Sequence record: PP989838.1 | Length of the DNA stretch: 64,000 bases | From: Escherichia phage VTCCBPA_211 | Direction: 5' to 3' (one strand) | Part shown: positions 1 to 36,040 of the stretch, piece by piece | Position numbering within the stretch: position 1 is the stretch's first letter | How the letters are laid out: each line of letters starts with the position of its first letter | Notes under the pieces: model-generated | Databases searched by the model: none | Told to the model about the DNA's origin: nothing | What the model saw: the letters and a program-made list of their open reading frames with translations, nothing else | Made by a program: the position numbers and the translations under genes

Positions 1-243
1 GCGCTCGCCGCGTGTTTCTCAAAAAGGGGGAGTCCTCATTTAAAAAAAGGGTTATTGGCAATGCCTTTACCTTCCCTTTCAACGTTCCACCTTTCCCCGT
101 GCCTACTCCCCGTAATTATTCCCCCGTGTATACTACCCAATACATTACCTACCCGTTTATTTAGTTCCCCTTTACTGAGTGAGAGAAAGGCCAGCACTGT
201 ACAGGCCAACTGATTAGTCTGCTAATAATGCCATTAATGATGG

Positions 244-272
244 TTGACAGCTACAGAGTAGCGTCGTATTCC
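244..272 (+). promoter_or_regulatory. promoter-like element TTGACA-17-TATTCC; copy 1 of a ~29-bp direct repeat
   Basis: TTGACAGCTACAGAGTAGCGTCGTATTCC; near-identical copy at 467-493; perfect -35 but poor -10. Confidence 0.3.
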
Positions 273-466
273 CCCATAGTTACGTTGATAATAGTTTCAA
301 TAGTAATGATTATGAGTGCAATAATGATATATGTATTAATTAAGTGTATGATTGTATTTCTTTTAATTATTCTTTTAAGAATGATTGTTTTTATTTCTTT
401 TAATCTTTTCCTTTTTCAGCGTGCCTTTGTGAGCGTAGCGAACGTCTTTGATGTTTGAGTTAACGA

Positions 467-493
467 TTGATAGCTACGAAGTAGCGTTATACT
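467..493 (+). promoter_or_regulatory. promoter-like element TTGATA-15-TATACT; copy 2 of the direct repeat; candidate promoter for the 668-2040 operon
   Basis: TTGATAGCTACGAAGTAGCGTTATACT; good -10, short spacer; 175 bp upstream of the first RBS-preceded ORF. Confidence 0.35.
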
Positions 494-667
494 AATTATT
501 TAAGTGGTATATTATTACCGCACTATCTGGCTATGTTCCCCCGTGGTCTGTTCTGCGGTTGTATGCCCCGTCCTATATAGTAGAAATAGTTTACCCGTGG
601 TCGCTTGTCTTCCTTGTTAAGTAATAGTAAATTGAAGCCTATCAATTGAGTGATTGGAGTGATAGAA

Positions 668-841
668 ATGATTATTCTAGTAATGATGGCAATGGCTGTA
701 GTGTTTCCTTTACTTGTTCTGATCGTTTGTGAAGTAGTGGAATTGTTCACTGATAGCAAGTTAAGCCCAAGAAACAAACCTAGTAAGTTTGATGGCGCTA
801 CTTTTAGTAGAAAGAAAGTTAGAAAGATGGTTGCAATGTAA
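668..841 (+). CDS. small membrane protein (57 aa)
   Basis: ATG 8 nt after GGAG; hydrophobic N-terminus MIILVMMAMAVVFPLLVLIV then basic tail; inside track ORF 650-841. Confidence 0.4.
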   Translation: MIILVMMAMAVVFPLLVLIVCEVVELFTDSKLSPRNKPSKFDGATFSRKKVRKMVAM

Positions 842-894
842 GAAAGCGTGTCCTATTATATCCCTATCTGATACATATCAAAGAGGCTTCACAA

Positions 895-1386
895 ATGACT
901 AAACCAATGCAGATGATTAATCTGGCAAGTTATGCGCTAGTCGCCGCGATCGGTGTTAGCGCGCTGGTAACATCTCTTTCTGATAAGGCTATTGCTGGCC
1001 CTATTTCTGCAAATGATGCCGCTAGTGTTTTCGCTAGTTCCATCAATAAAGGTTGGATGATTTGCAATGGTGCGGATAGTGATGGAAGTGCCATTGTGTT
1101 AAAAGTGAAATTTAGCAACGTTACTAATGAGGGCGTTCTCTTTCAGTCTAAGACGTTGGACAATCAGCCGAACAATGATCTGGTACTCAAGCGCACTGAT
1201 AACGATGCGGATATGGTGACGTATGGCACTGTAAAACGTTATAAAGACGTTAAAGCTGTAACCAATCTAGTGAGTTATGGCCCGGTTAATCAGTCGATGA
1301 TTGCCACCACGGTTTACAATAACGCTGATAATGCTGTTTATACTGTTCACATTAATCTAGCCAACTGCATCAAGGCCAGTAAGTAA
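895..1386 (+). CDS. secreted/periplasmic protein with signal peptide (163 aa), function unknown
   Basis: RBS AGAGG upstream; signal-like N-terminus ..LASYALVAAIGVSALVTSLSDKAIA-GP; track ORF. Confidence 0.7.
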   Translation: MTKPMQMINLASYALVAAIGVSALVTSLSDKAIAGPISANDAASVFASSINKGWMICNGADSDGSAIVLKVKFSNVTNEGVLFQSKTLDNQPNNDLVLKRTDNDADMVTYGTVKRYKDVKAVTNLVSYGPVNQSMIATTVYNNADNAVYTVHINLANCIKASK

Positions 1387-1413
1387 ATAACCAATTTTCA
1401 GGAGTAACAAAAA

Positions 1414-1665
1414 ATGAGTAACGAAGCGATTAAATTATCCAGCGGTGTTTCTTGTTTTGTGTGTGATACTTTTATCTCGTTCGGCTTGGAAGAAGGTTGC
1501 GTTATAATCCCTACCGTTGCCTTTTGTTCCATGAGTTTTAGCGAGGCTAAAAGATGGCTCCAATTGGTGCGCATTGATATAAATCGCGATGACTTCCGTT
1601 CAATTTACAATGACGGTGGTTTGTCGCTTGCTGGTCTTCTGGATTGTGATTTGCCAAAATGGTGA
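1414..1665 (+). CDS. hypothetical protein (83 aa)
   Basis: RBS CAGGAG 9 nt upstream; tight spacing after previous gene; track ORF. Confidence 0.6.
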   Translation: MSNEAIKLSSGVSCFVCDTFISFGLEEGCVIIPTVAFCSMSFSEAKRWLQLVRIDINRDDFRSIYNDGGLSLAGLLDCDLPKW

Positions 1666-1670
1666 TAAAA

Positions 1671-1757
1671 ATGATTCATGATTATCTTTGGCGTTGCTTG
1701 TTCGTTGTTACAGTGGCGTTGTTCGTCGCTGATATGCTTTATTCTTACATCCTTTGA
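1671..1757 (+). CDS. micro-ORF, single-TM peptide (28 aa) MIHDYLWRCLFVVTVALFVADMLYSYIL
   Basis: Hand translation; GGTGA 5 nt upstream; first of four back-to-back hydrophobic mini-ORFs ending at a terminator. Confidence 0.35.
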   Translation: MIHDYLWRCLFVVTVALFVADMLYSYIL

Positions 1758-1766
1758 GGTCCGGTT

Positions 1767-1865
1767 GTGTTGTTTCTGTTTTTGTTTGCCATTGGCTTCA
1801 TTTCTTTAAATTATTTACTGATTGTTGCCGCTCTCGATGTTATTAATCTCACCATTAAAGGTTGA
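1767..1865 (+). CDS. micro-ORF, single-TM peptide (32 aa), GTG start
   Basis: GTG 5 nt after GAGG; ..LFLFLFAIGFISLNYLLIVAALDVINLTIKG. Confidence 0.35.
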   Translation: MLFLFLFAIGFISLNYLLIVAALDVINLTIKG

Positions 1866-1871
1866 TTGGCT

Positions 1872-1967
1872 ATGTGGTTTATTAGATTCGTCGTTAAAAC
1901 GGTTGTAGGCTTCTTTCTGGTCATTCTTCTGTTAGGTGTCCTTCTATCGGCTATGGGTAATGCTTAA
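1872..1967 (+). CDS. micro-ORF, single-TM peptide (31 aa) MWFIRFVVKTVVGFFLVILLLGVLLSAMGNA
   Basis: Hand translation; AAAGG ~10 nt upstream; stop overlaps the next start (ATGCTTAA). Confidence 0.35.
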   Translation: MWFIRFVVKTVVGFFLVILLLGVLLSAMGNA

Positions 1968-2040
1968 ATCCATAGGCTTAATCTTTCTCCTGTATTGTGC
2001 CGTGGTCATGCCTATGGTCATAATCTATCTGATGCTCTAA
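1960..2040 (+). CDS. micro-ORF, single-TM peptide (26 aa) MLKSIGLIFLLYCAVVMPMVIIYLML
   Basis: Hand translation; start overlaps the previous stop; terminator follows 10 nt later. Confidence 0.35.
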   Translation: MLKSIGLIFLLYCAVVMPMVIIYLML

Positions 2041-2050
2041 TCCTTCCTAT

Positions 2051-2079
2051 AAGCGCCGCTATGGCGCTTTTCTGTTTTC
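2051..2079 (+). terminator. rho-independent terminator
   Basis: AAGCGCC-GCTAT-GGCGCTT (7-bp stem) followed by TTCTGTTTTC. Confidence 0.7.
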
Positions 2080-2252
2080 TAAGGTGATTGTATTCCTTAC
2101 TCCCTTTTAGTTCGCTGTAGTGCGTTTTAGGCCGTTAAATATCGATTTACAAGCCGTTTCCTATGATGTACCGCGTGCGTGCGCTCTTTTACTCTCCCAC
2201 TATGAAAAAAGTTTAAAATATTTTGCTTTACCCTATTGCATCCCTCACTGAT

Positions 2253-2261
2253 TAATGTATA
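2253..2261 (+). promoter_or_regulatory. TAATGTATA element (putative phage-sigma promoter -10-like element)
   Basis: Exact 9-mer; one of five exact copies, all intergenic; followed by hairpin + boxA. Confidence 0.5.
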
Positions 2262-2295
2262 CTTCATTTCATCGGGTACGATGTAAAACATACAA

Positions 2296-2322
2296 GGCAA
2301 GAAATTGCCCCGCTCTTTAAAA
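2296..2322 (+). promoter_or_regulatory. boxB-like hairpin + boxA antitermination element (unit 0)
   Basis: GGCAA-GAAA-TTGCC directly followed by CCGCTCTTTAAAAA. Confidence 0.6.
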
Positions 2323-2359
2323 ATCAGGCTAGAAAGTGAAAATATTCTTAAAAAGAGTA

Positions 2360-2388
2360 TTGACACCAGAAAAAGCCTGATACATAAT
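2360..2388 (+). promoter_or_regulatory. strong sigma70 early promoter P1
   Basis: TTGACA-17 nt-CATAAT; A-rich UP-like tract upstream; start region CATAATTAGCACAC shared with P3. Confidence 0.75.
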
Positions 2389-2396
2389 TAGCACAC

Positions 2397-2432
2397 AGTC
2401 AGCGATGACTTGAAAAATCCCGCTCTTTAAAA
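2397..2432 (+). promoter_or_regulatory. boxB-like hairpin + boxA (unit 1)
   Basis: AGTCA-GCGA-TGACT hairpin, then CCGCTCTTTAAAAA at 2420. Confidence 0.6.
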
Positions 2433-2509
2433 ACTTATCATCTTGCCCTTTCGCACAGAATCACGCGAGAAAGAGGGATAGAAAAGAAAAGAAGATGATA
2501 AAAAAGAGA

Positions 2510-2538
2510 TTGCAAACGTGGTTAAAGTAGTTCATACT
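2510..2538 (+). promoter_or_regulatory. sigma70 early promoter P2
   Basis: TTGCAA-17 nt-CATACT; A-rich upstream tract (AAAAAGAGA) as in P1. Confidence 0.7.
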
Positions 2539-2652
2539 AACCACAAGTTAGCAAAACATCGCTAACTAGTTCCCAAATCAACGTATCGCGGGAAAGGTGG
2601 CACATAGTGCAGCGAGTAGTTCGGGATTAGGCGCCCCGTTAATGAATAAGTA

Positions 2653-2712
2653 AGCCTTTAATGATGCAGTGATTAGCAGACACTATAAAAGGCTAAAAAC
2701 GCTCTTTAACAA
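2653..2712 (+). promoter_or_regulatory. hairpin + consensus boxA (unit 2)
   Basis: AGCCTTT..AAAGGCT stem, then CGCTCTTTAACAA at 2700-2712 (rrn boxA is TGCTCTTTAACAA). Confidence 0.65.
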
Positions 2713-2814
2713 AATGAATCATGAGTTAAGCCTTATCGCTTAATCTTCAACCCAACAAAGCGGGTTGATATATCCTCCCAATAGAGGGAACGACGAAAAA
2801 GATTAAAAAAGTGG

Positions 2815-2843
2815 TTGACGGCGAAAACATCATGGTCCATAAT
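2815..2843 (+). promoter_or_regulatory. strong sigma70 early promoter P3
   Basis: TTGACG-17 nt-CATAAT; A-rich UP-like tract; CATAATGAGCACAC start region. Confidence 0.75.
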
Positions 2844-2904
2844 GAGCACACTCAAGCAAAACACCGCTTCAGTGAAAAGCGAAACAACGGCTTACAGTTG
2901 CGTA

Positions 2905-2944
2905 GTGTGAGAAAGCACACTGACAGATTTACCGCTCTTTAATA
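2905..2944 (+). promoter_or_regulatory. boxB-like hairpin + boxA (unit 3)
   Basis: GTGTG-AGAAAG-CACAC hairpin, then CCGCTCTTTAATAA at 2932. Confidence 0.6.
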
Positions 2945-3752
2945 ATTTAAACATTCTCCTATATCGGTTGCATATGCTGGAAGATAATAACCATCGGAAA
3001 GCATACCAGATAAAACGGTGTAAGGCCCCTAAACTATCAGGGTAAACAGTCTTACAATCCCTTAACTGGAAACGTCACCACTGTTAAACGGATTCATTGA
3101 GTACACGCAACGGCTTAAACTAATCGCCCACGGTTAAAGGGTAGCGGCGGCCATCGCTAACAAGGTGCTACAATGAAAGAAGTTTATCAGGGTAGGCAAG
3201 TCCGACAAATTAACGCCCAATTGAGGGCGGCGGGGGATGGTTAAAAAGTGGCAAATTGCTATTTAACAATAAGGTTTAATGCGAACGTTTACGATGTGAA
3301 CGGCTTGAGATTCGTCTTATGACGGAAGTACATAGTCGGGTTATGTAGTAAACCCGCCGAAAGATATAAAACGCCGGAATATTAGGCGGTCAATGATCTC
3401 TTTCCGCAATAACCTCCCGTAGTGGGCGATGGTTAGCGGTTAGGAGTTGGCACAAAGGATAAGCGGGAGCGAAAACAAAGTAGACGATATTGCCGACGGT
3501 TACAGCAATGTAATTAAATAGAGTCGGACGCATAGCCTTATTGTGATGATTGATCATCGCTATCAGGTCGGCTTCGTTTATAGCGACTAATTAAAGATAC
3601 CAGATGAAACATCACGGATAAGGGGGCGGCAAGGTTAACTCCTGATAAGACCGCCCCGCTTATCAATAATTACTTAACAATGAGTGGTTATCGATAAGTC
3701 AACAGTGACTTAAAAAGCTCATAGAGAGCGGGGCATAGTGCCCTTACAATTG
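2945..3752 (+). other. ~0.8 kb ORF-free transcribed leader / candidate structured non-coding RNA
   Basis: No ORF above 23 codons with an RBS; GC-richer than flanks; many hairpins and short repeats (TATCAGGGTA x2, AACGGCTT x3, GATAAG x5); downstream of 4 promoters with boxA. Confidence 0.3.
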
Positions 3753-3765
3753 AAAGGTGAATATC

Positions 3766-4665
3766 ATGGCTAAAATCTTTACTCTGGTTAACGAATCTGG
3801 TTTTAATGCTCTGGCTAACAATATCCGTAGCAATAATGCAGCGATCAAACAGGATGTTTCTAATTTTCTGTTAGGGCACTTACAGCACTTCCGTAGCAAC
3901 GGTAAAAAGTTAGACGTATTGCAGTCGGCGGTTGATTTTCTGTTAACCGAACGTTTCCGCGATATGGATGTTATTGCTACCGCAATCACTTTCTTAACTC
4001 CTATCAAGTTTAACACTGATGCGGCGAATGGTCGTAAGAAGTGGATTAATCTGGAAGGTGAAGCGAAAGCGAAAGAAGATGCGAAAGAAGCGCAAATTAA
4101 AACCAAAATGGAGCAAAACCGCGCTCGCTGGTCAAACGCTTTCGAAAACTTCGCGTTAGGTCGTGAAATTGAAGTCGATAACCCTAACTTCTTCAAAGGT
4201 TGCAATGACAACGTAGCGGCACACCTGCAAATTCCGGCAAAGAATAAAGAAGACTTTAACCAAGATATTTACGCTTTGGTTGAACGCTTGAATGCAATCC
4301 GTATTGAAGCCAAATTACTGGCTGATGAGCGCAACGGCGCAACCAGTGATAATACTATCGCCTTAAGTGAAGAAGTGGGCAAGGTTAAAAAGTCCTTTGA
4401 TTCACTCATCAAGAAAGTCACGGCATCGACGGTAGCGATCTCAGATGATTATCTGATGAACGCATCAAGCAAGGAGCTGGAATCACTCGATTCATACGCT
4501 GATGAAATGGAAAAGACTGTTGCAGCTATGCAGGAGAAGTTAGAAAGTCTGCGCGGTCGTATCTCTTCAACGGTTGCTACCCGTACCGAACAAGCTGCGA
4601 AAGAAGAAGAGGAAGAAGTATTGCGTAAAGCTGCTGAAATTATGGCGGCACGTCAGGCGGCATAA
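3766..4665 (+). CDS. hypothetical early protein (299 aa), C-terminal acidic coiled coil
   Basis: ATG 8 nt after AAAGG; first ORF after the boxA leader; strong terminator follows. Confidence 0.75.
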   Translation: MAKIFTLVNESGFNALANNIRSNNAAIKQDVSNFLLGHLQHFRSNGKKLDVLQSAVDFLLTERFRDMDVIATAITFLTPIKFNTDAANGRKKWINLEGEAKAKEDAKEAQIKTKMEQNRARWSNAFENFALGREIEVDNPNFFKGCNDNVAAHLQIPAKNKEDFNQDIYALVERLNAIRIEAKLLADERNGATSDNTIALSEEVGKVKKSFDSLIKKVTASTVAISDDYLMNASSKELESLDSYADEMEKTVAAMQEKLESLRGRISSTVATRTEQAAKEEEEEVLRKAAEIMAARQAA

Positions 4666-4687
4666 GTAAGACAATCTAAATAAACAT

Positions 4688-4722
4688 AAGGCGCTATCTT
4701 AACGGGTAGCGCCTTTTCTTTA
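4688..4722 (+). terminator. rho-independent terminator
   Basis: AAGGCGCTA-10 nt loop-TAGCGCCTT (9-bp stem) followed by TTCTTTAT. Confidence 0.75.
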
Positions 4723-4775
4723 TCAGTGCATTGATTCAGTGCATTAATCAAAGAATCTAATCAAAGGTGACGATC

Positions 4776-4994
4776 ATGTTAATTACACATACCACGATTT
4801 ATCGGAATCTTGTCAACGGTCAACATTACCGCCTATCTAAAAAGTATGGCGTTGAATGTAAATGCGTTATTACCGGTGAATGGTATCCGTCACCAATGAA
4901 GATTGAAACGTTGGAACGTGAAGCGATCAGCTATATTATCACGCAAGAAACAACGTTAGGCCGTATCTTAAGAAAGCTGGGATTGAGAAAATGA
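4776..4994 (+). CDS. hypothetical protein (72 aa)
   Basis: ATG 5 nt after AAAGGTGA; inside track ORF 4767-4994. Confidence 0.6.
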   Translation: MLITHTTIYRNLVNGQHYRLSKKYGVECKCVITGEWYPSPMKIETLEREAISYIITQETTLGRILRKLGLRK

Positions 4995-5215
4995 TATTCA
5001 GTAATAATTTTGGCAAGTGTCCTATTTGTGAGAAGCATCGCAGCACGGGAAACCATCGCAAGTGTAGTAAGATATTACAGCGCCAACGTGATAACAACCA
5101 TTGGGATACTGTGCACACTAACCAGCGTAAAGAAGAAGTTAGGAAAATGGCTGTTAAAGCGTCGTTTGCTCAATCAACCCGTATCGAACATATTCAAAGG
5201 TATCAAGCATTATGA
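4991..5215 (+). CDS. small basic protein with CPIC..H..H zinc-knuckle-like N-terminus (74 aa)
   Basis: ATGA start/stop overlap with the upstream gene; preferred over alternative frame 5010-5222. Confidence 0.55.
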   Translation: MIFSNNFGKCPICEKHRSTGNHRKCSKILQRQRDNNHWDTVHTNQRKEEVRKMAVKASFAQSTRIEHIQRYQAL

Positions 5216-5421
5216 TCACTAATATTTCAGAGTTTAAGAAAGCGCCATCTCGTTTGTTAGGTCGTCGTGTTATATATCTTTACAGCAATAAAGGTAAATG
5301 TACAACCGGACAAATTACAACGGTGAGTAGTACCAACAAAACATTACTAAAATTATGCGTAACTATGGATGATGGTACAATCCTGCTACGTAGTTGGAAG
5401 TCATTTAGTTTACTCGATTAA
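5212..5421 (+). CDS. hypothetical protein (69 aa)
   Basis: ATGA overlap with the upstream gene; track ORF. Confidence 0.55.
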   Translation: MITNISEFKKAPSRLLGRRVIYLYSNKGKCTTGQITTVSSTNKTLLKLCVTMDDGTILLRSWKSFSLLD

Positions 5422-5490
5422 GTTATTTGTTCAAGCCTATCGCCTTGGTGGGCTTGCCCGATATAACTTATCACTGAAAGGAGTGAGATT

Positions 5491-5934
5491 ATGGCTAAAT
5501 CTAAAATCAGTATGAAGGGCGGGCGTTGTTTTTCTATCTCTGAACTGGAGAAAGAGAAGCCGAAGGCAACCAATTACATTAGTAAGCGCAGTTTAAAACG
5601 TCGTGCTGCAAAGGCTGAAGCTGAATCCTATATCCCTTCTAGTGTGGCAAAACGTGTAGGTCATCGCGTCCATCGTGCTGATGCGTTGTTGTTAGCTGAT
5701 CATAAACGTTCTTTGTTAAAGAGCGGGGGAGCTAAAACAGAAGAAGAGAAGAAATTAGAAATATTCTGTAATGGTCGCACCCGTGGTAAACAGAAGTTTA
5801 AGGGTAGCACGAAAGACCCTCAGGCTTTCCCTAAGACAAGCCAGTGTGCACCTGATGTTTTCTACGCAGACAGTAAACACAAGTGGGGCGTTGAAAAATA
5901 CATTGACCCTATCAAAGAGGCGAGGGTTAAGTAG
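5491..5934 (+). CDS. highly basic protein (147 aa), function unknown
   Basis: RBS AAAGGAG 8 nt upstream; K/R-rich; track ORF. Confidence 0.7.
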   Translation: MAKSKISMKGGRCFSISELEKEKPKATNYISKRSLKRRAAKAEAESYIPSSVAKRVGHRVHRADALLLADHKRSLLKSGGAKTEEEKKLEIFCNGRTRGKQKFKGSTKDPQAFPKTSQCAPDVFYADSKHKWGVEKYIDPIKEARVK

Positions 5935-5950
5935 TAGGAATATATCCCCT

Positions 5951-5968
5951 CTTTTAGTACTATGACGC
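5951..5968 (+). repeat. conserved 18-mer CTTTTAGTACTATGACGC, copy 1
   Basis: Exact second copy at 11712-11729; both lie just after a stop codon, preceded by a pyrimidine tract; here followed by CGCTCTTT (boxA-like core). Confidence 0.6.
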
Positions 5969-6013
5969 TCTTTCTGTAGCGTCGTGCCCTCTCCCCATTT
6001 GAAGCTTCCGCAT

Positions 6014-6036
6014 AGCCGCCTTTGAGCGGCTTTTTG
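6014..6036 (+). terminator. rho-independent terminator
   Basis: AGCCGC-CTTTGA-GCGGCT followed by TTTTT. Confidence 0.65.
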
Positions 6037-6098
6037 CGTTGCTGTAAGTGCATTTGCGAGTGTATTTATAGCAACGGTCATGTGTTGCTTTCAGGTTT

Positions 6099-6126
6099 GC
6101 CCCGGCTACGGCTGGGGCTTTTTTAT
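6099..6126 (+). terminator. rho-independent terminator (UACG tetraloop)
   Basis: GCCCCGGC-TACG-GCTGGGGC (8 bp, one G-U) followed by TTTTTTA. Confidence 0.8.
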
Positions 6127-6173
6127 GCCCGTAAAACAGGAGGTAGCAAGTTCTGATAACAACGGCACAGCTA

Positions 6174-6563
6174 ATGTTGACATTGACTATTTATTATGAG
6201 GCAGGGAATCAGCCAACCGCATGTAAAGCTATGGTTGCGGATACCGTGATAAATAGAATGGCCCAACGAAAACTGACCGCTGAACAGGTGATAAGACAAA
6301 AGAACCAGTTTGAGTGGATTCCGGTACTATTAAAACAGGAGAAACCTTATAAACGTTATGTAAAGCTGATTCGTGATAAAAATCCGATGACTAAGCAAGC
6401 CATTGGAGAAAGCGAGCGACTTGCTAAACGTGCCCTTAAGAAGAATTATGTTCCGCTGTACAGTGGGACTTACTTTCAGAGTAAGAGCGAAGGGGTGCCA
6501 AAATGGTATGCCAATCCCATGTATTGTGGTGATTTAGTGTTCGATAATAGCTCTAGGGAATAA
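6174..6563 (+). CDS. SleB-like cell-wall hydrolase domain protein (Hydrolase_2-like, 129 aa)
   Basis: LTLTIYYEAGNQP..AMVADTVINRM..NQFEW resembles the SleB-family N-terminal motif; start uncertain (strong AGGAGG at 6138 has no canonical start nearby). Confidence 0.6.
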   Translation: MLTLTIYYEAGNQPTACKAMVADTVINRMAQRKLTAEQVIRQKNQFEWIPVLLKQEKPYKRYVKLIRDKNPMTKQAIGESERLAKRALKKNYVPLYSGTYFQSKSEGVPKWYANPMYCGDLVFDNSSRE

Positions 6564-6762
6564 TCACTAGTGCCAGATTTGACAAACTAAATTCCTTTAT
6601 AAACCAACCACTTAGTAAATTTATTGAAAAAGATGGTAGTATTCTGGGACTATGAGTAATGCTCTGTATATAGACCCTTTGAAAATTTCTTAGAAAATAA
6701 GTTTACTAAATATAACTTACTTAAATAATATTACTTTTAATCTCTGATAAAGGGTAAATAAT

Positions 6763-7059
6763 ATGACTTTAGAAGTATATAAATTCCTTTTTGTAAGCTG
6801 TTTAACTATCAGCGTTATAGGATTTATTATCCTTAGAAACAAAGCAGCAAGCTGGGAGAGAATGTATAAATCCCTAGTCCGAGTGGATGAGATGTATAAT
6901 GAGAAAGTTAAAGTGACTCTTAACGATCTTATTATGCAAGTTGAAGACAGAAACAAACGTCTTCAGAACCTCAATCATGAAGTATTGCGCCTTGCTCGTG
7001 CTAATGAAGACTTGCGAGTGGCTATTGCTAAGCAGCAGGAGATTAACAGTGATAATTGA
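6763..7059 (+). CDS. membrane-anchored coiled-coil protein (98 aa)
   Basis: RBS AAAGGG upstream; N-terminal TM then heptad-like region; track ORF. Confidence 0.6.
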   Translation: MTLEVYKFLFVSCLTISVIGFIILRNKAASWERMYKSLVRVDEMYNEKVKVTLNDLIMQVEDRNKRLQNLNHEVLRLARANEDLRVAIAKQQEINSDN

Positions 7060-7060
7060 T

Positions 7061-7285
7061 ATGAACCATCCACCAAAGAAGTTAACTCTTGGGGATCTAG
7101 ATTCAGGTGATGTGTTCCAATTCTTTGTGAACTCTGATGATTTTTATATGGCTTCCTGTAGATTTAACAAATCGGATGGTTGTAGAAATTATATGAACCT
7201 TTCGAACGGTGTGATCTCAGCAGATCGTAATACTGTGGTTGTTAAGAAGATTAACAATGCTCGACTTACAGATAAGGTGGATTAA
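7061..7285 (+). CDS. GDVF-family small protein, paralog 1 (74 aa)
   Basis: KKLTLGDLDSGDVFQF motif shared with 6 other ORFs; internal ATG of track ORF 6941-7285, abutting the upstream stop. Confidence 0.6.
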   Translation: MNHPPKKLTLGDLDSGDVFQFFVNSDDFYMASCRFNKSDGCRNYMNLSNGVISADRNTVVVKKINNARLTDKVD

Positions 7286-7287
7286 CA

Positions 7288-7524
7288 GTGAAAGTTAATA
7301 TTAAATCTGATCGTACAATGCTTCGATTAAATAACATGAAGCCGGGCGTTCTGTTTGAGCGTAAAGAGTCCCTTTATATTAGAACTGACACATTGTACGC
7401 AGATAACTATGTGAACTGTGTTGATGTGGTAACTGGAAAGCTAATGCCTATTAAACGAGATGAAGTCTGCCAAGTACGCAGTGATCTCCACATAACAAAC
7501 ATAGAGGCTAAAGATGAAGATTGA
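7288..7524 (+). CDS. GDVF-family small protein, paralog 2 (78 aa), GTG start
   Basis: RBS AAGGTGG upstream; LRLNNMKPGVLFE variant of the family motif. Confidence 0.6.
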   Translation: MKVNIKSDRTMLRLNNMKPGVLFERKESLYIRTDTLYADNYVNCVDVVTGKLMPIKRDEVCQVRSDLHITNIEAKDED

Positions 7525-7768
7525 TCTGAACCTTAAAGCTAAAGAATTGCGTGTGGGTGATTTGAAACTTGGTGATGTGTTCCAAGTTAAGGCAACATGT
7601 ATTGATTATTACATGATTGTTCAGCTATACACACCACATGTGTCAGAGACTGATCTTCGGAATGGTTGTGTAGTTCTTAGTTTAAGCACCAATCAAGTAA
7701 TGAAGCTAGATTCAAACTTACCTGTTTCAGTCATCCATGATGTAGTAATTACTAATAAAGAAAAGTAA
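7514..7768 (+). CDS. GDVF-family small protein, paralog 3 (84 aa)
   Basis: RBS AGAGG; KELRVGDLKLGDVFQV motif; overlaps the upstream gene by 11 nt. Confidence 0.65.
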   Translation: MKIDLNLKAKELRVGDLKLGDVFQVKATCIDYYMIVQLYTPHVSETDLRNGCVVLSLSTNQVMKLDSNLPVSVIHDVVITNKEK

Positions 7769-7777
7769 CATCGACTT

Positions 7778-7810
7778 ATAGCCCTTGTGTTTATCAGAGG
7801 GCTATGTGAG
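7778..7810 (+). repeat. conserved intergenic hairpin + GGGCTATGTGAG, copy A
   Basis: ATAGCCCT-12 nt-AGGGCTAT then GTGAG; homologous element at 12041-12067; no U-tract. Confidence 0.5.
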
Positions 7811-8126
7811 GGTGTTCCTCATTAACTTATTAATTCAGGCATATGCCACACCGCTAGGGAGAGCTTGCTCGAACATCCGGTGTTAGACTAAAACCTGTTA
7901 ATTTTCGAAAGACTTTCTGATATGTAGGGGTACATATTGGTTTGGGATTCAGGAGACTTCCTAGGGGTAGGGAGTCTTCACCAGTTGGGATAAGAGATAG
8001 CTCTAGAACCTGAACTCTTAGGCAGAGAAGGTCGGCAATGAGTACGCGGTCAGAATTAGTCTACTGACTAGGGCTATCCCTTATATCAACTGGCAATAAT
8101 GCCTCCACTAACAAAGAGAGATAGAT

Positions 8127-8457: not shown

Positions 8458-8461
8458 ATAA

Positions 8462-8494
8462 AAGGCTGCCCAATCGGGTGGCCTTTGTTGTTTT
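8462..8494 (+). terminator. rho-independent terminator
   Basis: AAGGCTGCCC-AATC-GGGTGGCCTT (10 bp, 2 wobbles) followed by TGTTGTTTT. Confidence 0.7.
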
Positions 8495-9379: not shown

Positions 9380-9456
9380 GCGCCCTTAGTTCAATTGGAC
9401 AGAACATCGGATTTCTAATCCGTCGGTTACAGGTTCGAATCCTGTAGGGTGCGCCA
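9380..9456 (+). tRNA. tRNA-Arg (anticodon UCU, reads AGA), CCA encoded
   Basis: Manual cloverleaf: acceptor GCGCCCT/AGGGTGC, D arm GTTC/GAAC, anticodon loop TTTCTAA, T arm ACAGG-TTCGAAT-CCTGT, 3' GCCA. Confidence 0.9.
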
Positions 9457-27783: not shown

Positions 27784-27992
27784 TGAGACCAATCACTATG
27801 AGAAAATTTTGGTTAGCAAAGATTGAGTGGGCATCAGGTGGCATGACTATGACTGCACTACCCACTCGCCAACAAGCTCGAGATTTTAAAAAGACTATGC
27901 TTACTGGTGACGTGGTCAATAGTATCAGTATCCATAAGGCCAAGGAGTATTCTTCTGGTCGTGTTTATATCAGCGGAAAGGTGCATTACTAA
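27783..27992 (+). CDS. MKKxW/TRxxAR-family small protein, paralog 2 (69 aa; may start at 27798)
   Basis: ..MRKFWLA..PTRQQARDFKKT..KVHY; TAATGA coupling. Confidence 0.55.
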   Translation: MRPITMRKFWLAKIEWASGGMTMTALPTRQQARDFKKTMLTGDVVNSISIHKAKEYSSGRVYISGKVHY

Positions 27993-28201
27993 TGAAAAAG
28001 ATGTGGGCTATTCATGTTGTTTGGGATCTTGAGCAACACATGAGAAAAGATAGCATCAAATTGTTTGACACTCGCAAAGAGGCTCGTATTGCTAAGAAAC
28101 AGTTGAAGACTCTGGGCACAATAGTAAAAAGCGCTGACATACATCGCTGGTATGAAGGCCCTAACACTGGTTCTTTTATGTCTAAAGTAATTTACTACTG
28201 A
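27992..28201 (+). CDS. MKKxW/TRxxAR-family small protein, paralog 3 (69 aa)
   Basis: MKKMWAI..DTRKEARIAKKQ..KVIYY; TAATGA coupling. Confidence 0.6.
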   Translation: MKKMWAIHVVWDLEQHMRKDSIKLFDTRKEARIAKKQLKTLGTIVKSADIHRWYEGPNTGSFMSKVIYY

Positions 28202-29407: not shown

Positions 29408-29680
29408 ATGACTAAAGTAATTAAGTTTTATAGTGATCAGTGTGCTCCATGTAAAGCAATGGCTCCTACCTTTGAGAAGGTTGTTAAGGAGTTTGATGTA
29501 GAAGTGGAAGAGATTAACATCCTTGAAGGTGATGGTCGTGAACAAGCTGTTAAGTATGGTGTACGAAGTATCCCTGCTTTCGTTGTACCTGACCGTAACA
29601 GTGGTGCACACTACAGCCTCTCTGGTATGCAGACCGAAGCAAACCTGAAAGCATTCTTAACTACTGCCCTAGGTGTTTGA
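29408..29680 (+). CDS. thioredoxin (90 aa)
   Basis: Active site CAPC in FYSDQCAPCKAMAP; thioredoxin-size ORF. Confidence 0.85.
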   Translation: MTKVIKFYSDQCAPCKAMAPTFEKVVKEFDVEVEEINILEGDGREQAVKYGVRSIPAFVVPDRNSGAHYSLSGMQTEANLKAFLTTALGV

Positions 29681-29682
29681 TT

Positions 29683-29886
29683 ATGAAAAAATATTGGACG
29701 GTGGTATATTACCTCTACCAAGACCCGGCTATACCTGTTACAGAGCACTTTGCTACTCGTAAAGATGCTCGCCGTTTTAAGAAGGCTCTTAAGATGGCCC
29801 CAAAGATTTATAGTAAAGTAAGCTTACATAAATCAACATTGTCAGAGATGGGAACCTTAGTGGTTTATTATGTAAAAGAATATTAA
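29683..29886 (+). CDS. MKKxW/TRxxAR-family small protein, paralog 4 (67 aa)
   Basis: MKKYWTV..ATRKDARRFKKA..; ATG 7 nt after AGGTG. Confidence 0.6.
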   Translation: MKKYWTVVYYLYQDPAIPVTEHFATRKDARRFKKALKMAPKIYSKVSLHKSTLSEMGTLVVYYVKEY

Positions 29887-31823: not shown

Positions 31824-32005
31824 AGTGCTCTAAATGTGAAGGAACAAACCTTCATTTAAGTAACAAGGTTATCAGAGAGCTTGCCAAAGGCTCTCCAACC
31901 AAAGGGAAGAACAAACGATTTACTAACGTCAGGGTTTACACAGCAATCTGTAAAGATTGTTTAACTACTGAGTGTCATTACGAAGAAATTGGAGAGCGTA
32001 AATGA
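31808..32005 (+). CDS. zinc-ribbon protein (65 aa)
   Basis: CSKCEG..CKDC; track ORF; ATGA coupling to phoH. Confidence 0.55.
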   Translation: MDIVVKCSKCEGTNLHLSNKVIRELAKGSPTKGKNKRFTNVRVYTAICKDCLTTECHYEEIGERK

Positions 32006-32745
32006 GTCGTCGTCAATCACGGAAAGAATCACGGAAAGACCTTCGTCGGGAAGCACTTGTCACTCGTAAGGGTAAGCGAGAGTTTGAAGAGGTGGTTTTA
32101 GCAAAGCCTGTAGTCCCTCAGAACCAGTTTCAGTCTGAGCTACTCAATGCTATTAAGACTAAACAAGTTGTGTTCACAGACGCTCCTGCGGGCTGTGGTA
32201 AGACCTTTGTAATCACTTCCACAGTTATTGATGCACTGAAGAGCGGTAAGATTCAGAAGATCATTCTGAGTCGACCTTCGGTTGGCATGGGCAATTCTCT
32301 TGGGCTACTTCCGGGAGGAATGCGTGAGAAGTTTGAACCATACCTGATGCCTATCATTGATGTTATCACTCAGCGATATGGTAAGGGGTTCTATGAATGC
32401 CAACTTGGTAACAGTAACATTGAGTTCGTACCTCTGGAATATCTCCGTGGTCGTTCTTTCAATGATGCTATTGTTATTGTTGATGAGTTCCAGAATACCA
32501 CTAAAGATGAAGCCTTCTCAATCATGACTCGATTGGGAGAAACCTCTCAGCTGTTCTGCATGGGTGATACAAACCAGCATGATATGCGTGGTCGTGAGAG
32601 TGGTCTTACTTGGGCTACTAATTTTATTGATGAACACGATCTGTATGAGTTCGCTGAGATTGTAGACGGCGAATCAGATGACATTGTTCGTTCTGGTTTC
32701 TGTAAAGCCATTGTTAAAGCTATGGAAAAGGAACAAGATAAATGA
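32002..32745 (+). CDS. phoH: PhoH-like ATPase
   Basis: Walker A DAPAGCGKT, IVIVDEFQN, typical PhoH length. Confidence 0.9.
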   Translation: MSRRQSRKESRKDLRREALVTRKGKREFEEVVLAKPVVPQNQFQSELLNAIKTKQVVFTDAPAGCGKTFVITSTVIDALKSGKIQKIILSRPSVGMGNSLGLLPGGMREKFEPYLMPIIDVITQRYGKGFYECQLGNSNIEFVPLEYLRGRSFNDAIVIVDEFQNTTKDEAFSIMTRLGETSQLFCMGDTNQHDMRGRESGLTWATNFIDEHDLYEFAEIVDGESDDIVRSGFCKAIVKAMEKEQDK

Positions 32746-34694: not shown

Positions 34695-36040
34695 GTGAGC
34701 AACCCGGACGCTCTTCCATTTTTGACAGAGATGACTGTCGCTGATATAATCTCTAAGCAAGCAAAGCACGGAGTGAGTTTCAACCGAAGAAATGCTCGGT
34801 GGTATGTTCACCTCCTTAAAGAGATTATTGTTAATATTGACAGAGAGTTGATTCCTCTCTTACCTAAGATGAGATTAGACGGCTCTACTTATATGAAGCC
34901 GTTTAAGAAGTCTGGAGCTTTACAGAAGTGGCCTCAAGCTTATTGTGATAGGGTTGGGCTGAAGAGAGAAGATATTGGTGGAGCTTTCACCTGTGTCGAA
35001 TATGTAGACTTTGACCCATCGAAAGATGCACGAGTTAAAGAAGCTCTTATGGATGAGGGCTTTCTTCCTCCAGAGTTTAATGTATCTAAGAAGCCTTGGA
35101 ATACTTTCGAAATTAAGAAAGATATGAGAAAGTATGGAACATACCAAGCATGGTATACTGCTTGGATGCGAGGCAATGCTAAGCAGAAGCAGACAGCCGA
35201 GATGGTTGACGCTGATATTAAGAAGTTCTTAGAAAAGCATTTCAGGTTTAAAACTAAGAACTATATGAAGGCTTACGTATTTGGTTTGGGATTAAACCCT
35301 AATCGTCGTAATCCTGTAACGTTTGATGAGATTAAGAAAGCGCTAGCCACATCAAACAAGTGGCCTACAGCTCCTACAAACCTCGAGGAGACTCTTGAAG
35401 AAGGGTTAGGGGGTGAGCTAGGGAGTGTCGGAAGTTTGCTTAAGAGACGCGTTGTAGCGGCTCACAGGCTAGGTCTTATCAGTGGACTTATAGCAAAGGA
35501 ACGCGAAGATGGTAAACTTTCGGCAGAAGCTAACAGCTGCGCTACGCCGACTTTTCGATTCAAACATCGTATCGTGGTTAATATTCCCTCCCGTGGTCTG
35601 TTTGGTCACGAGTGTCGCAGTTTGTTTGAGTCTGACTATAACTCAGACAGTGATCACTCTCGTCCTTTCGTTATTACTAACGCTGTTCCTGATGGTTGTT
35701 ATATACGAAAAGGTACTAACGTAATTTACGAGAAAGGTAAGCCGGGGAAGAAAGACAAACCTGTAGGCGCTTACAAATATTACATACCCGCTGGTAAAGA
35801 AGTATTCTTAGGGTATGATGGTTCTGGACTTGAACTTCGTATGTTAGTGCATTATCTTGTGAAAGAGTGCCTTGACATGATGGAAGAAGCCAAAGCAGAG
35901 AACGATAAAATTAAGTATCTAAGGGCTGAGAAAGGTTTAGAGGCTGCTTATACTTATCGAGAGGTTCTTCTCTCAGGTGATATCCATTCCCACAACCAGA
36001 AACTAGCTGGCCTACCAACTAGAGATAATGCAAAGACGTT
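34695..36040 (+). CDS. family-A DNA polymerase (polymerase domain), exon 1, GTG start
   Basis: RBS AAAGGAG; ends ..LPTRDNAKT(F), the first half of motif B (RxxAKxxxYGxxYG). Confidence 0.85.

What the first reader, a model, noticed from the sequence alone, without database searches (positions are those of the whole stretch)
2253..2944. Four hairpin + boxA cassettes behind three tandem sigma70 promoters and one phage-type promoter suggest rrn-style Nus antitermination
CGCTCTTTAA(A/C/T)AA occurs at 2310, 2420, 2700 and 2932. The copy at 2700-2712 is CGCTCTTTAACAA. This matches boxA of Nus-factor antitermination: E. coli rrn boxA is TGCTCTTTAACAA and lambda nut boxA is CGCTCTTA.

Each copy sits 0-12 nt downstream of a short hairpin: GGCAA-GAAA-TTGCC, AGTCA-GCGA-TGACT, AGCCTTT..AAAGGCT and GTGTG-AGAAAG-CACAC. 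That is the rrn-like boxB-then-boxA order.

Each cassette has its own promoter. There are three near-consensus sigma70 promoters:
- TTGACA-17-CATAAT at 2360.
- TTGCAA-17-CATACT at 2510.
- TTGACG-17-CATAAT at 2815.

These carry A-rich UP-like tracts, and P1 and P3 share a conserved CATAATnAGCACAC start region (P2 has the related CATACTAACCACA). The fourth promoter is a TAATGTATA element at 2253.

I saw no N- or Q-like antiterminator gene. The likely model is that the phage recruits host NusB/S10/NusA/NusG, as rRNA operons do. That would carry RNA polymerase through 0.8 kb of untranslated RNA, where Rho would otherwise act, and through downstream terminators. I am not aware of this having been described for this phage group.
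Basis: partly seen in the sequence, partly recalled or inferred. Interest (0 to 1): 0.75.

Follow-up and report, generated by a model that had tools for sequence, protein, structure and literature searches.

The report
Phage early leader carries rrn-type boxA
A phiEco32-like E. coli phage places four copies of the host's ribosomal-RNA 'boxA' anti-termination signal behind its tandem early promoters, most likely so that hijacked host RNA polymerase runs unstopped through an 800-base structured RNA and a long early operon; phage T7 is already known to do this with one copy.

Summary
CGCTCTTTAA occurs at 2311, 2421, 2700 and 2933 on the + strand. All four copies match the published functional boxA consensus GYTCTTTAANA (5 matches in 64 kb, 0.59 expected). 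The window is a Kuravirus (phiEco32-like).

All 18 GenBank relatives from the three genera of the subfamily, and the five metagenomic contigs with enough upstream sequence, carry 3-5 copies alternating with sigma70-like promoters. The motif survives where its upstream context has been replaced by unrelated sequence. Two preceding hairpin types covary. Flanks extend the match to E. coli rrn boxA to 16-19 nt.

Rrn-style, N-independent Nus antitermination is therefore the best reading. It is not a new principle. T7 has CGCTCTTTAACAA 62 nt after promoter A3, and the literature calls it a boxA anti-termination element with a genetic phenotype. T7-like, T5-like and probably SP6/K1E-like phages carry it too.

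What is distinctive here is one boxA per promoter. The 800 nt between the last boxA and the first gene is also a conserved structured RNA with strong covariation (227 pairs, 78 with compensatory changes) and no Rfam match.

Corrections: P2 matches only 8/12, hairpin 3 is unsupported, and the leader is G-rich, so a poor Rho substrate by composition.

The parts
2051..2078 (+). Intrinsic terminator that closes the short upstream early operon. It marks the start of the ORF-free spacer.
   Evidence: One search finds an 8-bp stem followed by TTCTGTTTTC. The homologous site is annotated as a terminator in SU10 and 4E8.
2236..2263 (+). Promoter slot 0. TAATGTATA (2253-2261) matches the gp36 phage-sigma promoter consensus and overlaps a sigma70-like TTGCAT-16-TATACT (9/12 by my count).
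   Evidence: 5 exact copies against 0.65 expected. The consensus is given. The exact nonamer is found only in this window, ECBP2 and KBNP1711. phiEco32 instead has TTGACA-16-TAATAT upstream of its first boxA.
2296..2309 (+). Hairpin 1, GGCAA-GAAA-TTGCC (GNRA loop), ending 1 nt before boxA1.
   Evidence: The stem is lengthened by paired insertions in relatives: GGGCAA/TTGCCC, GGCAAG/CTTGCC, GGCAAT/ATTGCC.
2311..2323 (+). boxA1, CGCTCTTTAAAAA. With its 3' flank (…AAAAATCAGG) it resembles the rrnB 16S-23S spacer boxA (TGCTCTTTAAAAATCTGG).
   Evidence: In one search the local alignment scored 33 against a shuffle maximum of 28.
2350..2388 (+). P1: A-tract, then -35 TTGACA (2360-2365) and -10 CATAAT (2383-2388), 11/12. 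AAAAAGAGTATTGAC (2350-2364) is identical to the upstream/-35 region of T7 promoter A1.
   Evidence: The homologous promoter is listed for SU10.
2398..2411 (+). Hairpin 2, AGTCA-GCGA-TGACT, at the very 5' end of the P1 transcript and 9 nt before boxA2.
   Evidence: Covariation: AGT/ACT, ATT/AAT, GGT/ACC.
2421..2433 (+). boxA2, CGCTCTTTAAAAA, followed by CTTATCA (the rrnB leader has …AACAATTTATCA).
   Evidence: One search aligns 17 of 19 positions with the rrnB leader.
2510..2538 (+). P2, TTGCAA-17-CATACT (8/12), preceded by an A-rich tract. Probably a weaker promoter.
   Evidence: It falls below the 9/12 cut-off. A related cassette in Bas93 has TTGACA-17-CATACT.
2547..2566 (+). Hairpin GTTAGC-AAAACATC-GCTAAC, just after the predicted P2 start. 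In metagenomic relative L036 the same hairpin lies 9 nt before a boxA.
2700..2712 (+). boxA3, CGCTCTTTAACAA, with 12 of 13 positions identical to rrn leader boxA TGCTCTTTAACAA. It is positionally conserved at -1056 to -1074 from the first ATG in all 18 relatives.
2795..2843 (+). P3: conserved A-tract (AAAAAGATTAAAAAAGTGG), then -35 TTGACG (2815-2820) and -10 CATAAT (2838-2843), 10/12.
   Evidence: The A-tract has mean column conservation 0.92. The homologous promoter is listed for SU10.
2904..2921 (+). Hairpin 4, AGTGTG-AGAAAG-CACACT, 11 nt before boxA4. A second small hairpin, CGCTT-CAGTGAA-AAGCG, lies at 2865-2881.
   Evidence: Six covarying stem variants share a near-constant loop. It is helix 1 of the counted structure: 3 of 7 pairs have compensatory changes and 97.6% of cells are paired.
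2933..2945 (+). boxA4, CGCTCTTTAATAA (…TTTA). It is invariant in 18 phages except at the N position of the consensus, and sits at -826 to -837 from the ATG in all of them.
   Evidence: One search aligns 17 of 19 positions with the rrnB leader ACTGCTCTTTAACAATTTA.
2946..3747 (+). About 800 nt of conserved, length-conserved, ORF-free structured leader RNA. It has two large domains, each closed by a long-range helix, plus 3' hairpins. The 5' strand of the first long-range helix starts directly after boxA4.
   Evidence: In one search the counted structure has 227 pairs with 99.0% of cells paired, and 78 pairs show compensatory changes against 33.7 +/- 3.3 in shuffles and 6-12 with slid partners. 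MFE z-score is -6.0. There are 430 G-U cells against 19 A-C cells, so the + strand is the folded strand. No Rfam match, no E. coli homologue, no conserved ORF.
3766..4665 (+). First protein gene of the unit (homologue of phiEco32 gp124, 299 aa, function unknown).
   Evidence: PHROG 13018, unknown function. No Pfam family reaches its cut-off.
4688..4715 (+). First of several terminator-like hairpins that transcripts from P1-P3 must pass. The others are at 6014-6031, 6099-6118 and 8461-8486.
   Evidence: Terminators are annotated at the equivalent places in phage 4E8. No sigma70-like site above 10/12 appears on the + strand between 2.9 and 34.7 kb.

Best explanation
The four CGCUCUUUAA(A/C/U)AA elements are rrn-type BoxA RNA signals in the untranslated leader of the phage's main early transcription unit. 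Host sigma70 RNA polymerase starts at the tandem promoters P1, P2 and P3. In this lineage it may also start at a gp36-type or weak sigma70 promoter at 2253.

Within roughly 25-190 nt of each predicted start a BoxA emerges, usually just after a small hairpin. It binds host NusB-S10. Together with NusA, NusG and SuhB this converts the polymerase into an rrn-like termination-resistant complex. No phage N or Q protein is needed.

The modified polymerase then:
- transcribes the 800-nt untranslated, highly structured leader RNA without being released by Rho;
- reads through the terminator-like hairpins after the first genes;
- carries on, probably faster, through an early region that has no other strong sigma70 promoter for about 30 kb.

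BoxA is repeated so that every promoter's transcript loads the factors early and can reload them, as the leader and spacer BoxAs do in rrn operons. Later the phage protein gp79 shuts off the sigma70 promoters.

Shown here: the motif, its conservation, its orientation, its resemblance to rrn, the hairpin covariation, and the structured RNA. Inferred: Nus binding, antitermination, the effect on speed, and reloading.
For: 1. All four copies match the functional consensus GYTCTTTAANA. Enrichment is about eightfold and the copies cluster on one strand.

2. All 18 GenBank relatives, plus the five metagenomic contigs with enough upstream sequence (L036-L038, L040, L041), have 3-5 copies. In the loci every + strand hit lies in the promoter spacer. 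The copies alternate with sigma70-like promoters. All three genera of Gordonclarkvirinae are covered.

3. The copies at -830 and -1066 are intact in 36 of 36 positional homologues, while the leader alignment averages 89% column identity. The only variable base in boxA4 is the N of the consensus.

4. The motif is kept where the upstream context is unrelated sequence: 51 contexts among 71 instances.

5. Flanks extend the rrn match. Three relatives have GCTCTTTAACAATTTATCA, which is 19 of 19 identical to the rrnB leader. Copy 1 resembles the rrnB spacer boxA.

6. The hairpin-then-boxA order is the rrn order. Hairpins 1, 2 and 4 covary.

7. What lies downstream resembles what Nus complexes are known to serve: untranslated structured RNA and terminators. 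The rrn complex with SuhB suppresses both Rho-dependent and intrinsic termination in vitro. BoxA also protects untranslated CRISPR arrays from Rho.

8. Precedent: T7 carries CGCTCTTTAACAA at 812-824, after tandem promoters A1-A3. It is described as a boxA anti-termination element whose mutation makes Gp2 dispensable.

9. The same promoter-then-boxA layout is seen in Klebsiella and Pseudomonas T7-like phages and in a T5-like phage. BLAST also hits unannotated regions of SP6/K1E-like phages, which I did not inspect.

10. No N- or Q-like family was found among the 18 early ORFs scanned. The one ORF with an arginine-rich N-terminus is a PhoH-like ATPase.
Against: - There are no transcript or binding data for this phage group in what I could read. 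The two primary phiEco32 papers were not available.
- The leader RNA is G-rich (C/G below 1 over most of 3100-3600) and almost fully paired, so it is not a good rut substrate by composition.
- Predicted accessibility of boxA1, boxA3 and boxA4 in nascent transcripts is only 0.4-0.5.
- The more distant phage 7-11 has a non-coding leader of about 1 kb with no boxA, so the device is not obligatory for this genome architecture.
- About 47 small early ORFs were not scanned, so a novel phage cofactor cannot be excluded.
- The terminator and promoter scans are consensus matches only, and promoter-like hits were no more frequent than in shuffles.
Confidence: 0.7

Rival explanations
1. BoxA recruits the Nus/SuhB complex mainly as an RNA-folding chaperone, not for termination control. 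BoxA stays tethered to the polymerase, so the 5' strand of a long-range helix is held near the exit channel until its 3' partner is made. This is the role proposed for the leader-trailer helix of 16S rRNA.
For: The 5' strand of the helix closing domain 1 (A1 columns 69-81 pairing with 359-372, about 290 nt apart) begins directly after boxA4. The RNA is heavily structured and G-rich, so the need for anti-Rho action is less obvious. A chaperone role for the rrn complex is mentioned in the abstracts listed and is otherwise from my own knowledge.
Against: This does not explain boxA1-3, which lie upstream of other promoters and are not adjacent to long-range helices. T7, T7-like and T5-like phages have boxA without such an RNA. 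It is compatible with the main explanation rather than exclusive of it.
Confidence: 0.1
2. Decoy or titration. An abundant early RNA carrying 3-5 strong BoxA sites soaks up NusB, S10 and SuhB. This starves host rrn operons of antitermination factors and helps shut off ribosome synthesis.
For: There are several consensus BoxA copies per transcript, behind strong promoters with A-rich upstream tracts. Host shut-off is part of this phage group's biology.
Against: A decoy does not need one boxA per promoter, nor placement immediately after transcription starts. T7 and the T5-like phage manage with a single copy in the regions examined. The phage already encodes a direct sigma70-holoenzyme inhibitor, gp79. 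There is no evidence on RNA abundance.
Confidence: 0.07
3. The 10-mer acts at the DNA level, or binds something other than Nus factors. It could be a site for a phage or host DNA-binding protein, or part of an initial-transcribed-region signal.
For: The motif always lies close to promoters. No binding data exist.
Against: All 71 instances have the same orientation as transcription. The distance from the promoter varies from about 8 to about 190 nt. The match extends into rrn boxA flanks, which only matter at the RNA level. The identical element in T7 is reported as an antitermination element.
Confidence: 0.04
4. Repressive BoxA, as at suhB. The Nus complex on BoxA lowers expression of what follows (translation block followed by Rho termination), which would throttle early expression.
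For: BoxA can repress (Baniulyte 2017).
Against: The search for such targets in that paper looked within 50 nt of a start codon. Here the nearest boxA is 833 nt upstream of the first ATG.
Confidence: 0.03
5. The copies are passive products of cassette duplication and have no function of their own.
For: The promoter-hairpin-boxA units look modular and their number varies from 3 to 5.
Against: The motif is the only part shared by otherwise unrelated cassettes, and it is invariant across three genera while neighbouring positions diverge.
Confidence: 0.02

Closest known systems
Phage T7 early-leader boxA (downstream of promoters A1-A3; Savalia et al. 2010, as cited in PMC3709561)
   Same: Both are virulent podophages that use host RNA polymerase for early genes. 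Both have tandem strong sigma70 promoters with A-rich upstream tracts, and P1 here shares AAAAAGAGTATTGAC with T7 A1. Both carry an rrn-type CGCTCTTTAACAA in the untranslated leader, in the sense orientation, with no N protein. In both, a phage-encoded inhibitor later switches host polymerase off (Gp2 in T7, gp79 here)..
   Different: T7 has one boxA, 62 nt after the last promoter. Here there is one per promoter, 3-5 in total, mostly preceded by a covarying hairpin. The T7 leader is about 175 nt from the A3 start to gene 0.3. Here an 800-nt structured RNA follows. From my own knowledge, the T7 early unit is about 7 kb and T7 then uses its own RNA polymerase; here the unit seems to run about 30 kb and the phage uses its own sigma factor.
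E. coli rrn operon antitermination (boxB-boxA-boxC leader and spacer boxA; NusA/B/E/G + SuhB + S4 complex)
   Same: Tandem promoters, hairpin-then-boxA order, boxA repeated along the transcript, and a large untranslated structured RNA downstream. The boxA sequence and its flanks are 16-19 nt identical.
   Different: I saw no boxC-like sequence (rrnB has tgtgtggg about 15 nt after boxA). Similarity to rrn leaders is confined to boxA plus about 6 nt on either side. The downstream RNA is unrelated to rRNA and is followed by protein genes.
Lambdoid N/nut antitermination
   Same: The CGCUCUU core of boxA and the use of host Nus factors.
   Different: From my own knowledge, lambda nut has boxA before boxB, a shorter and weaker boxA (CGCUCUUA), and an absolute need for N binding to a specific boxB loop. 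Here the hairpin comes first and the loops differ between cassettes (GAAA, GCGA, AGAAAG, GAG, UUA …). No N-like protein was found.
BoxA upstream of CRISPR arrays (Stringer 2020) and in the suhB 5' UTR (Baniulyte 2017)
   Same: The same consensus is used outside rRNA operons. For CRISPR arrays it protects a long untranslated transcript from Rho.
   Different: Those are chromosomal, single-copy elements. The suhB case is repressive.

Membership tests
rrn-type BoxA / Nus-factor (NusB-S10-NusA-NusG-SuhB) antitermination site | RNA element matching the functional consensus GYUCUUUAANA, in the sense orientation of the transcript | tested here: met
   All four copies match. All are on the + strand, like the promoters and genes.
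rrn-type BoxA / Nus-factor (NusB-S10-NusA-NusG-SuhB) antitermination site | Located in the transcribed region downstream of a promoter and upstream of the RNA to be protected | tested here: met
   Each copy lies downstream of a predicted co-directional promoter in every relative. Three promoters in this spacer are reported for phiEco32 and SU10. Transcription starts were not mapped here.
rrn-type BoxA / Nus-factor (NusB-S10-NusA-NusG-SuhB) antitermination site | Sequence under selection as such (conserved independently of its context) | tested here: met
   36 of 36 positional homologues are intact. There are 51 distinct upstream contexts. Variation is confined to the N position.
rrn-type BoxA / Nus-factor (NusB-S10-NusA-NusG-SuhB) antitermination site | Binding of the NusB-S10 heterodimer to the RNA, with SuhB/NusA/NusG recruitment | not testable with these tools
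   Needs gel shift, ITC or ChIP.
rrn-type BoxA / Nus-factor (NusB-S10-NusA-NusG-SuhB) antitermination site | boxA-dependent readthrough of Rho-dependent and/or intrinsic terminators | not testable with these tools
   Terminator-like sites exist downstream, but readthrough cannot be measured here.
rrn leader architecture (boxB-boxA-boxC) | Stem-loop immediately upstream of boxA | tested here: met
   A hairpin ends 0-12 nt before boxA in most cassette types, and types 1, 2 and 4 covary. It is absent or weak in some cassettes, for example window copy 3 and the phiEco32 P2 cassette.
rrn leader architecture (boxB-boxA-boxC) | boxC (UGUGUGGG-like) downstream of boxA | tested here: not met
   I saw no such sequence after any of the four copies when reading against the rrnB leader. 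This was a visual comparison, not a formal search.
Lambdoid N/nut site | boxA followed by boxB with a conserved N-binding loop, plus an N protein with an arginine-rich motif | tested here: not met
   The order is hairpin then boxA. The loops are heterogeneous. The only arginine-rich N-terminus among the early ORFs belongs to a PhoH-like ATPase. Only 18 of 65 ORFs were scanned against family libraries.
phiEco32 gp36-dependent (middle/late) promoter | Single element tAATGTAtA about 6-8 nt upstream of the start | tested here: inconclusive
   There is an exact TAATGTATA at 2253. It is found only in this lineage, it overlaps a sigma70-like promoter, and no gp36 promoter is reported at this place in phiEco32 (one search lists genes 6, 13, 26, 40, 58 and 68).
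Rfam RNA families (for the 800-nt leader) | Covariance-model match | tested here: not met
   No hit at E<=1 in 1-8000 other than an unrelated MicX match at 5997-6126 (E=0.11, far below its gathering score). Only chance-level hits at E<=10 in 2200-3800.

The most novel reading that the evidence does not exclude
The early leader of phiEco32-like phages may be a mimic of an rRNA operon. On this reading the phage borrows the host rrn antitermination and chaperone complex to make and fold a previously undescribed 800-nt structured non-coding RNA. boxA4 abuts the long-range helix that closes the first domain of that RNA. The RNA would have a function of its own in takeover, for example binding ribosomal or transcription proteins, or countering a defence system. 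Its multi-copy boxA leader would at the same time drain NusB, S10 and SuhB from host rrn operons.
Probability: 0.15. Interest if true: 0.8.

Novelty: new member of a known kind. Interest (0 to 1): 0.45.

Why it matters
It explains how a phage with no RNA polymerase of its own, and no N or Q protein detected, could get host polymerase through an untranslated kilobase and a very long early operon. It gives a concrete answer to the 'antitermination strategy that remains to be defined' raised for this wider phage group, although phage 7-11 itself lacks boxA.

Together with T7-like and T5-like phages (and probably SP6/K1E-like ones), it suggests that N-independent, rrn-type boxA is a common and under-annotated feature of the host-polymerase early units of virulent enterobacterial phages. 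That has three practical consequences:
- phage annotation pipelines could mark it;
- promoter-boxA cassettes are ready-made parts for phage engineering;
- it predicts which phages should be sensitive to Nus or SuhB perturbation.

The by-product may matter more: a large, strongly covarying phage RNA with no known family.

Tried and rejected
- **Rfam.** Scans of 1-8000 and, more permissively, of 2200-3800 found no family for the leader RNA or the cassettes.
- **Capture of a host rrn leader.** Local alignments with shuffle controls show similarity only in boxA plus about 6 nt on either side, so no long homology. The 800-nt RNA has no match in 5,426 E. coli genomes.
- **IMG/VR scan.** The invariant 18-mer AGATTTACCGCTCTTTAA returned 14 contigs. 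The nine that were not copies of known isolates showed no further boxA, and the four I inspected were chance hits in unrelated sequence. The protein-based scan returned only the isolates and one near-identical contig.
- **Phage 7-11 as a distant comparator.** It has no boxA in its early leader, and its first early protein is not homologous to gp124.
- **N-like protein.** An arginine-rich N-terminus scan flagged ORF 32002-32745, which is a PhoH-like ATPase.
- **Rho-substrate composition.** The leader is G-rich, so this does not support a strong rut region.
- **boxA accessibility.** Partition-function folding of nascent transcripts was inconclusive: 0.4-0.5 for three copies and 0.9 for boxA2.
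- **Small conserved ORF in the leader.** None found.
- **Literature.** Savalia 2008, Pavlova 2012 and Savalia 2010 are not held. No held paper links phiEco32 or Kuravirus with boxA or antitermination of its own early unit. One broad search was uninformative.
Full report
**What the window is.** The region is about 91% identical to Escherichia phages ECBP2, FH3, ES17 and others. In all, 97 GenBank records match, all phiEco32-like podophages (Kuravirus and allies, subfamily Gordonclarkvirinae). The window is the reverse complement of the usual GenBank orientation, so the early genes lie on the + strand. In phiEco32 the flagged region is the 1.9-kb unannotated gap between genes 125 and 124. The literature I could read says this spacer holds three sigma70 promoters in phiEco32 and SU10. 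It also says that middle and late promoters use the phage sigma gp36 with the consensus tAATGTAtA.

**The observation.** CGCTCTTTAA is at 2311, 2421, 2700 and 2933, all on the + strand.
- Each copy is a perfect match to the functional gamma-proteobacterial boxA consensus GYTCTTTAANA derived by Baniulyte et al..
- The window has 5 matches against 0.59 expected. The fifth is antisense inside an ORF at 5714-5724.
- P1 (11/12) and P3 (10/12) are the two best sigma70-like sites in the first 9 kb.
- P2 is only 8/12, but a related promoter cassette in Bas93 has a consensus -35.
- TAATGTATA at 2253 is one of five exact copies in the window against 0.65 expected. It overlaps a TTGCAT-16-TATACT sigma70-like site.
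- Hairpins 1, 2 and 4 are as described. Hairpin 3 is weak.

**Conservation.** I fetched the spacer from 18 GenBank relatives covering all three genera (Kuravirus, Suseptimavirus EK010, Nieuwekanaalvirus EP335) and from metagenomic contigs.
- Every phage has 3-5 copies of [C/T]GCTCTTTAA-N-A. All are on the + strand and inside the promoter spacer, and they alternate with sigma70-like promoters.
- Two copies sit at fixed distances from the first ATG (-826 to -837 and -1056 to -1074) in all 18.
- In the alignment the last boxA and its flanks are invariant except at the N of the consensus, while the alignment as a whole averages 89% column identity.
- The spacer is mosaic. The 71 instances have 51 distinct 32-nt upstream contexts, which fall into about ten unrelated families by my reading, and the boxA is the only element they share.
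- The promoter type in the first slot also varies: TAATGTATA in this lineage, TTGACA-16-TAATAT in phiEco32. The boxA that follows stays.

Passive duplication does not account for these features.

**Resemblance to rrn.** I took the rrnB leader and 16S-23S spacer from E. coli K-12.
- The rrn order is hairpin then boxA, as here.
- Copy 3 is 12 of 13 identical to the leader boxA.
- Copy 4 (ACCGCTCTTTAATAATTTA) and copy 2 each match 17 of 19 positions of the leader element with its flanks.
- Copy 1 (GCTCTTTAAAAATCAGG) matches the spacer boxA and scores above every shuffle.
- Three relatives carry GCTCTTTAACAATTTATCA, identical over 19 nt to the rrnB leader.
- Beyond about 6 nt on either side there is no similarity. 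I saw no boxC-like sequence.

**The hairpins.** Type 4 has six covarying stem variants with a near-constant AGAAAG loop. Type 2 (loop GCGA) and type 1 (loop GAAA) also show compensatory changes or paired insertions. Loops differ between cassettes and some cassettes have no hairpin. A single N-like protein reading them all is therefore unlikely. They may equally serve as 5'-end stabilisers or keep boxA unpaired (inference).

**What lies downstream.** The 800 nt between boxA4 and the first ATG is not junk.
- Its length is conserved to within about 10 nt across three genera.
- RNAalifold predicts 241 pairs.
- After I removed the unsupported long-range pairs that involve boxA, 227 pairs remain and form standard pairs in 99.0% of cells.
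- 78 pairs show compensatory double changes, against 33.7 +/- 3.3 in column shuffles and 6-12 when partners are slid by 1-3 columns.
- The + strand folds 32 kcal/mol better than the - strand, with z = -6.0.
- There are 430 G-U cells against 19 A-C cells, so it is the + strand transcript that is folded.
- It has no conserved ORF, no Rfam match and no E. coli homologue.

After the first gene (gp124 homologue, function unknown) come terminator-like hairpins at 4688, 6014, 6099 and 8461 (annotated in phage 4E8). No sigma70-like site above 10/12 appears on the + strand until 34.7 kb. The first other TAATGTATA is at 33.1 kb. The cassettes therefore appear to feed a transcription unit of roughly 30 kb that begins with about 0.9-1.5 kb of untranslated RNA.

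**Mechanism.** Nascent BoxA binds NusB-S10 and nucleates an rrn-type complex with NusA, NusG and SuhB. The polymerase becomes resistant to Rho and less prone to intrinsic termination, as shown in vitro for the rrn complex. From established knowledge it also becomes faster. BoxA also protects untranslated CRISPR arrays from Rho.

Points against:
- The leader is G-rich and fully structured, so it is a poor rut candidate by composition.
- Predicted boxA accessibility is middling.
- Phage 7-11 manages without boxA.
- Nothing has been measured.

An attractive addition is that boxA4 abuts the 5' strand of the long-range helix closing domain 1. That is the geometry in which a boxA-tethered polymerase could help the RNA fold, as proposed for 16S rRNA (inference).

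**Comparison with what is known.** The principle is not new. Blasting the rrnB boxA region against the phage collection gave hits in unannotated early regions of many virulent phages.
- T7 itself has CGCTCTTTAACAA at 812-824, which is 62 nt after the A3 start and follows the tandem promoters A1-A3.
- A held paper, citing Savalia et al. [quoted passage not shown] - The same layout occurs in Klebsiella phage K5-4 and Pseudomonas phage PFP1, where boxA follows the early promoter region.
- It also occurs in a T5-like phage, where an A-tract, TTGACA-17-TAAGAT and then ACTGCTCTTTAACAATTT sit inside the pre-early operon.
- P1 of the window even shares AAAAAGAGTATTGAC with T7 A1.

I found no paper in the library that mentions boxA or antitermination for the phiEco32 early unit. 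The 2022 paper on 7-11 from the same laboratory says an antitermination strategy 'remains to be defined' and cites no phiEco32 precedent. However, the primary phiEco32 papers and Savalia 2010 could not be read, so I cannot exclude an earlier mention.

**Verdict.** Its distinctive features are one boxA per promoter (3-5 per genome), mostly with a covarying hairpin, and an rRNA-operon-like arrangement in which the boxA leader feeds a large structured RNA. The structured RNA is the most novel thing in the neighbourhood and deserves its own follow-up.

Noticed in passing
window 2946-3747 (+): An RNA of about 800 nt, conserved and strongly covarying, lies between the last boxA and the first early gene. 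It has 227 pairs, 78 with compensatory changes. It has no Rfam family, no E. coli homologue and no conserved ORF. Short motifs recur in the sequence (ACCAGAU[A/G]AAAC, UAUCAGG, GGUUAA). Its function is unknown.
   Followed up: partly
L046 (T7) 812-824; L043 (Klebsiella K5-4) 747-759; L044 (Pseudomonas PFP1) 766-778; L047 (T5-like saus132) 1501-1518: rrn-type boxA sits downstream of the host-polymerase early promoters in T7, T7-like and T5-like phages. BLAST also hits unannotated regions of SP6/K1E-like phages and positions around 1400 of jumbo Erwinia and Serratia phages. It is unannotated in these records. A systematic census looks worthwhile.
   Followed up: partly
window 2350-2364 and L046 (T7) 452-466: P1 shares a 15-nt identity, AAAAAGAGTATTGAC (A-tract plus -35), with T7 promoter A1.
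   Followed up: no
window 5714-5724 (-): A fifth perfect match to the boxA consensus lies on the - strand, antisense inside the ORF 5491-5934. It is probably chance (0.59 expected per window). Its conservation was not checked.
   Followed up: no
window 2182-2191 (+): A one-mismatch boxA-like sequence, CGCTCTTTTA, lies between the upstream terminator and the TAATGTATA element. It does not fit the functional consensus.
   Followed up: no
L021 (Salmonella phage 7-11), right end, - strand, about 1050 nt upstream of gp151: 7-11 also has a non-coding leader of about 1 kb before its first early gene, but no boxA. Its gp151 is not homologous to gp124. I did not test whether that leader is structured.
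   Followed up: partly
window 34722-34750 (+): A perfect 12/12 sigma70 promoter (TTGACA-17-TATAAT) with an upstream TG. It may be the host-type promoter reported to drive the phage sigma gene, but I did not check the position.
   Followed up: no
window 27992-28201 and 29677-29886 (+): Two small paralogous ORFs (both PHROG 4939, 69 aa) have basic N-terminal regions. Function unknown.
   Followed up: no
window 9380-9456 (+): A tRNA-Arg(TCT) gene lies within the early region.
   Followed up: no
window 32002-32745 (+): A PhoH-like ATPase has a strikingly arginine/lysine-rich N-terminus (MSRRQSRKESRKDLRRE…). It lies at the end of the early region, just before the first middle promoter.
   Followed up: partly
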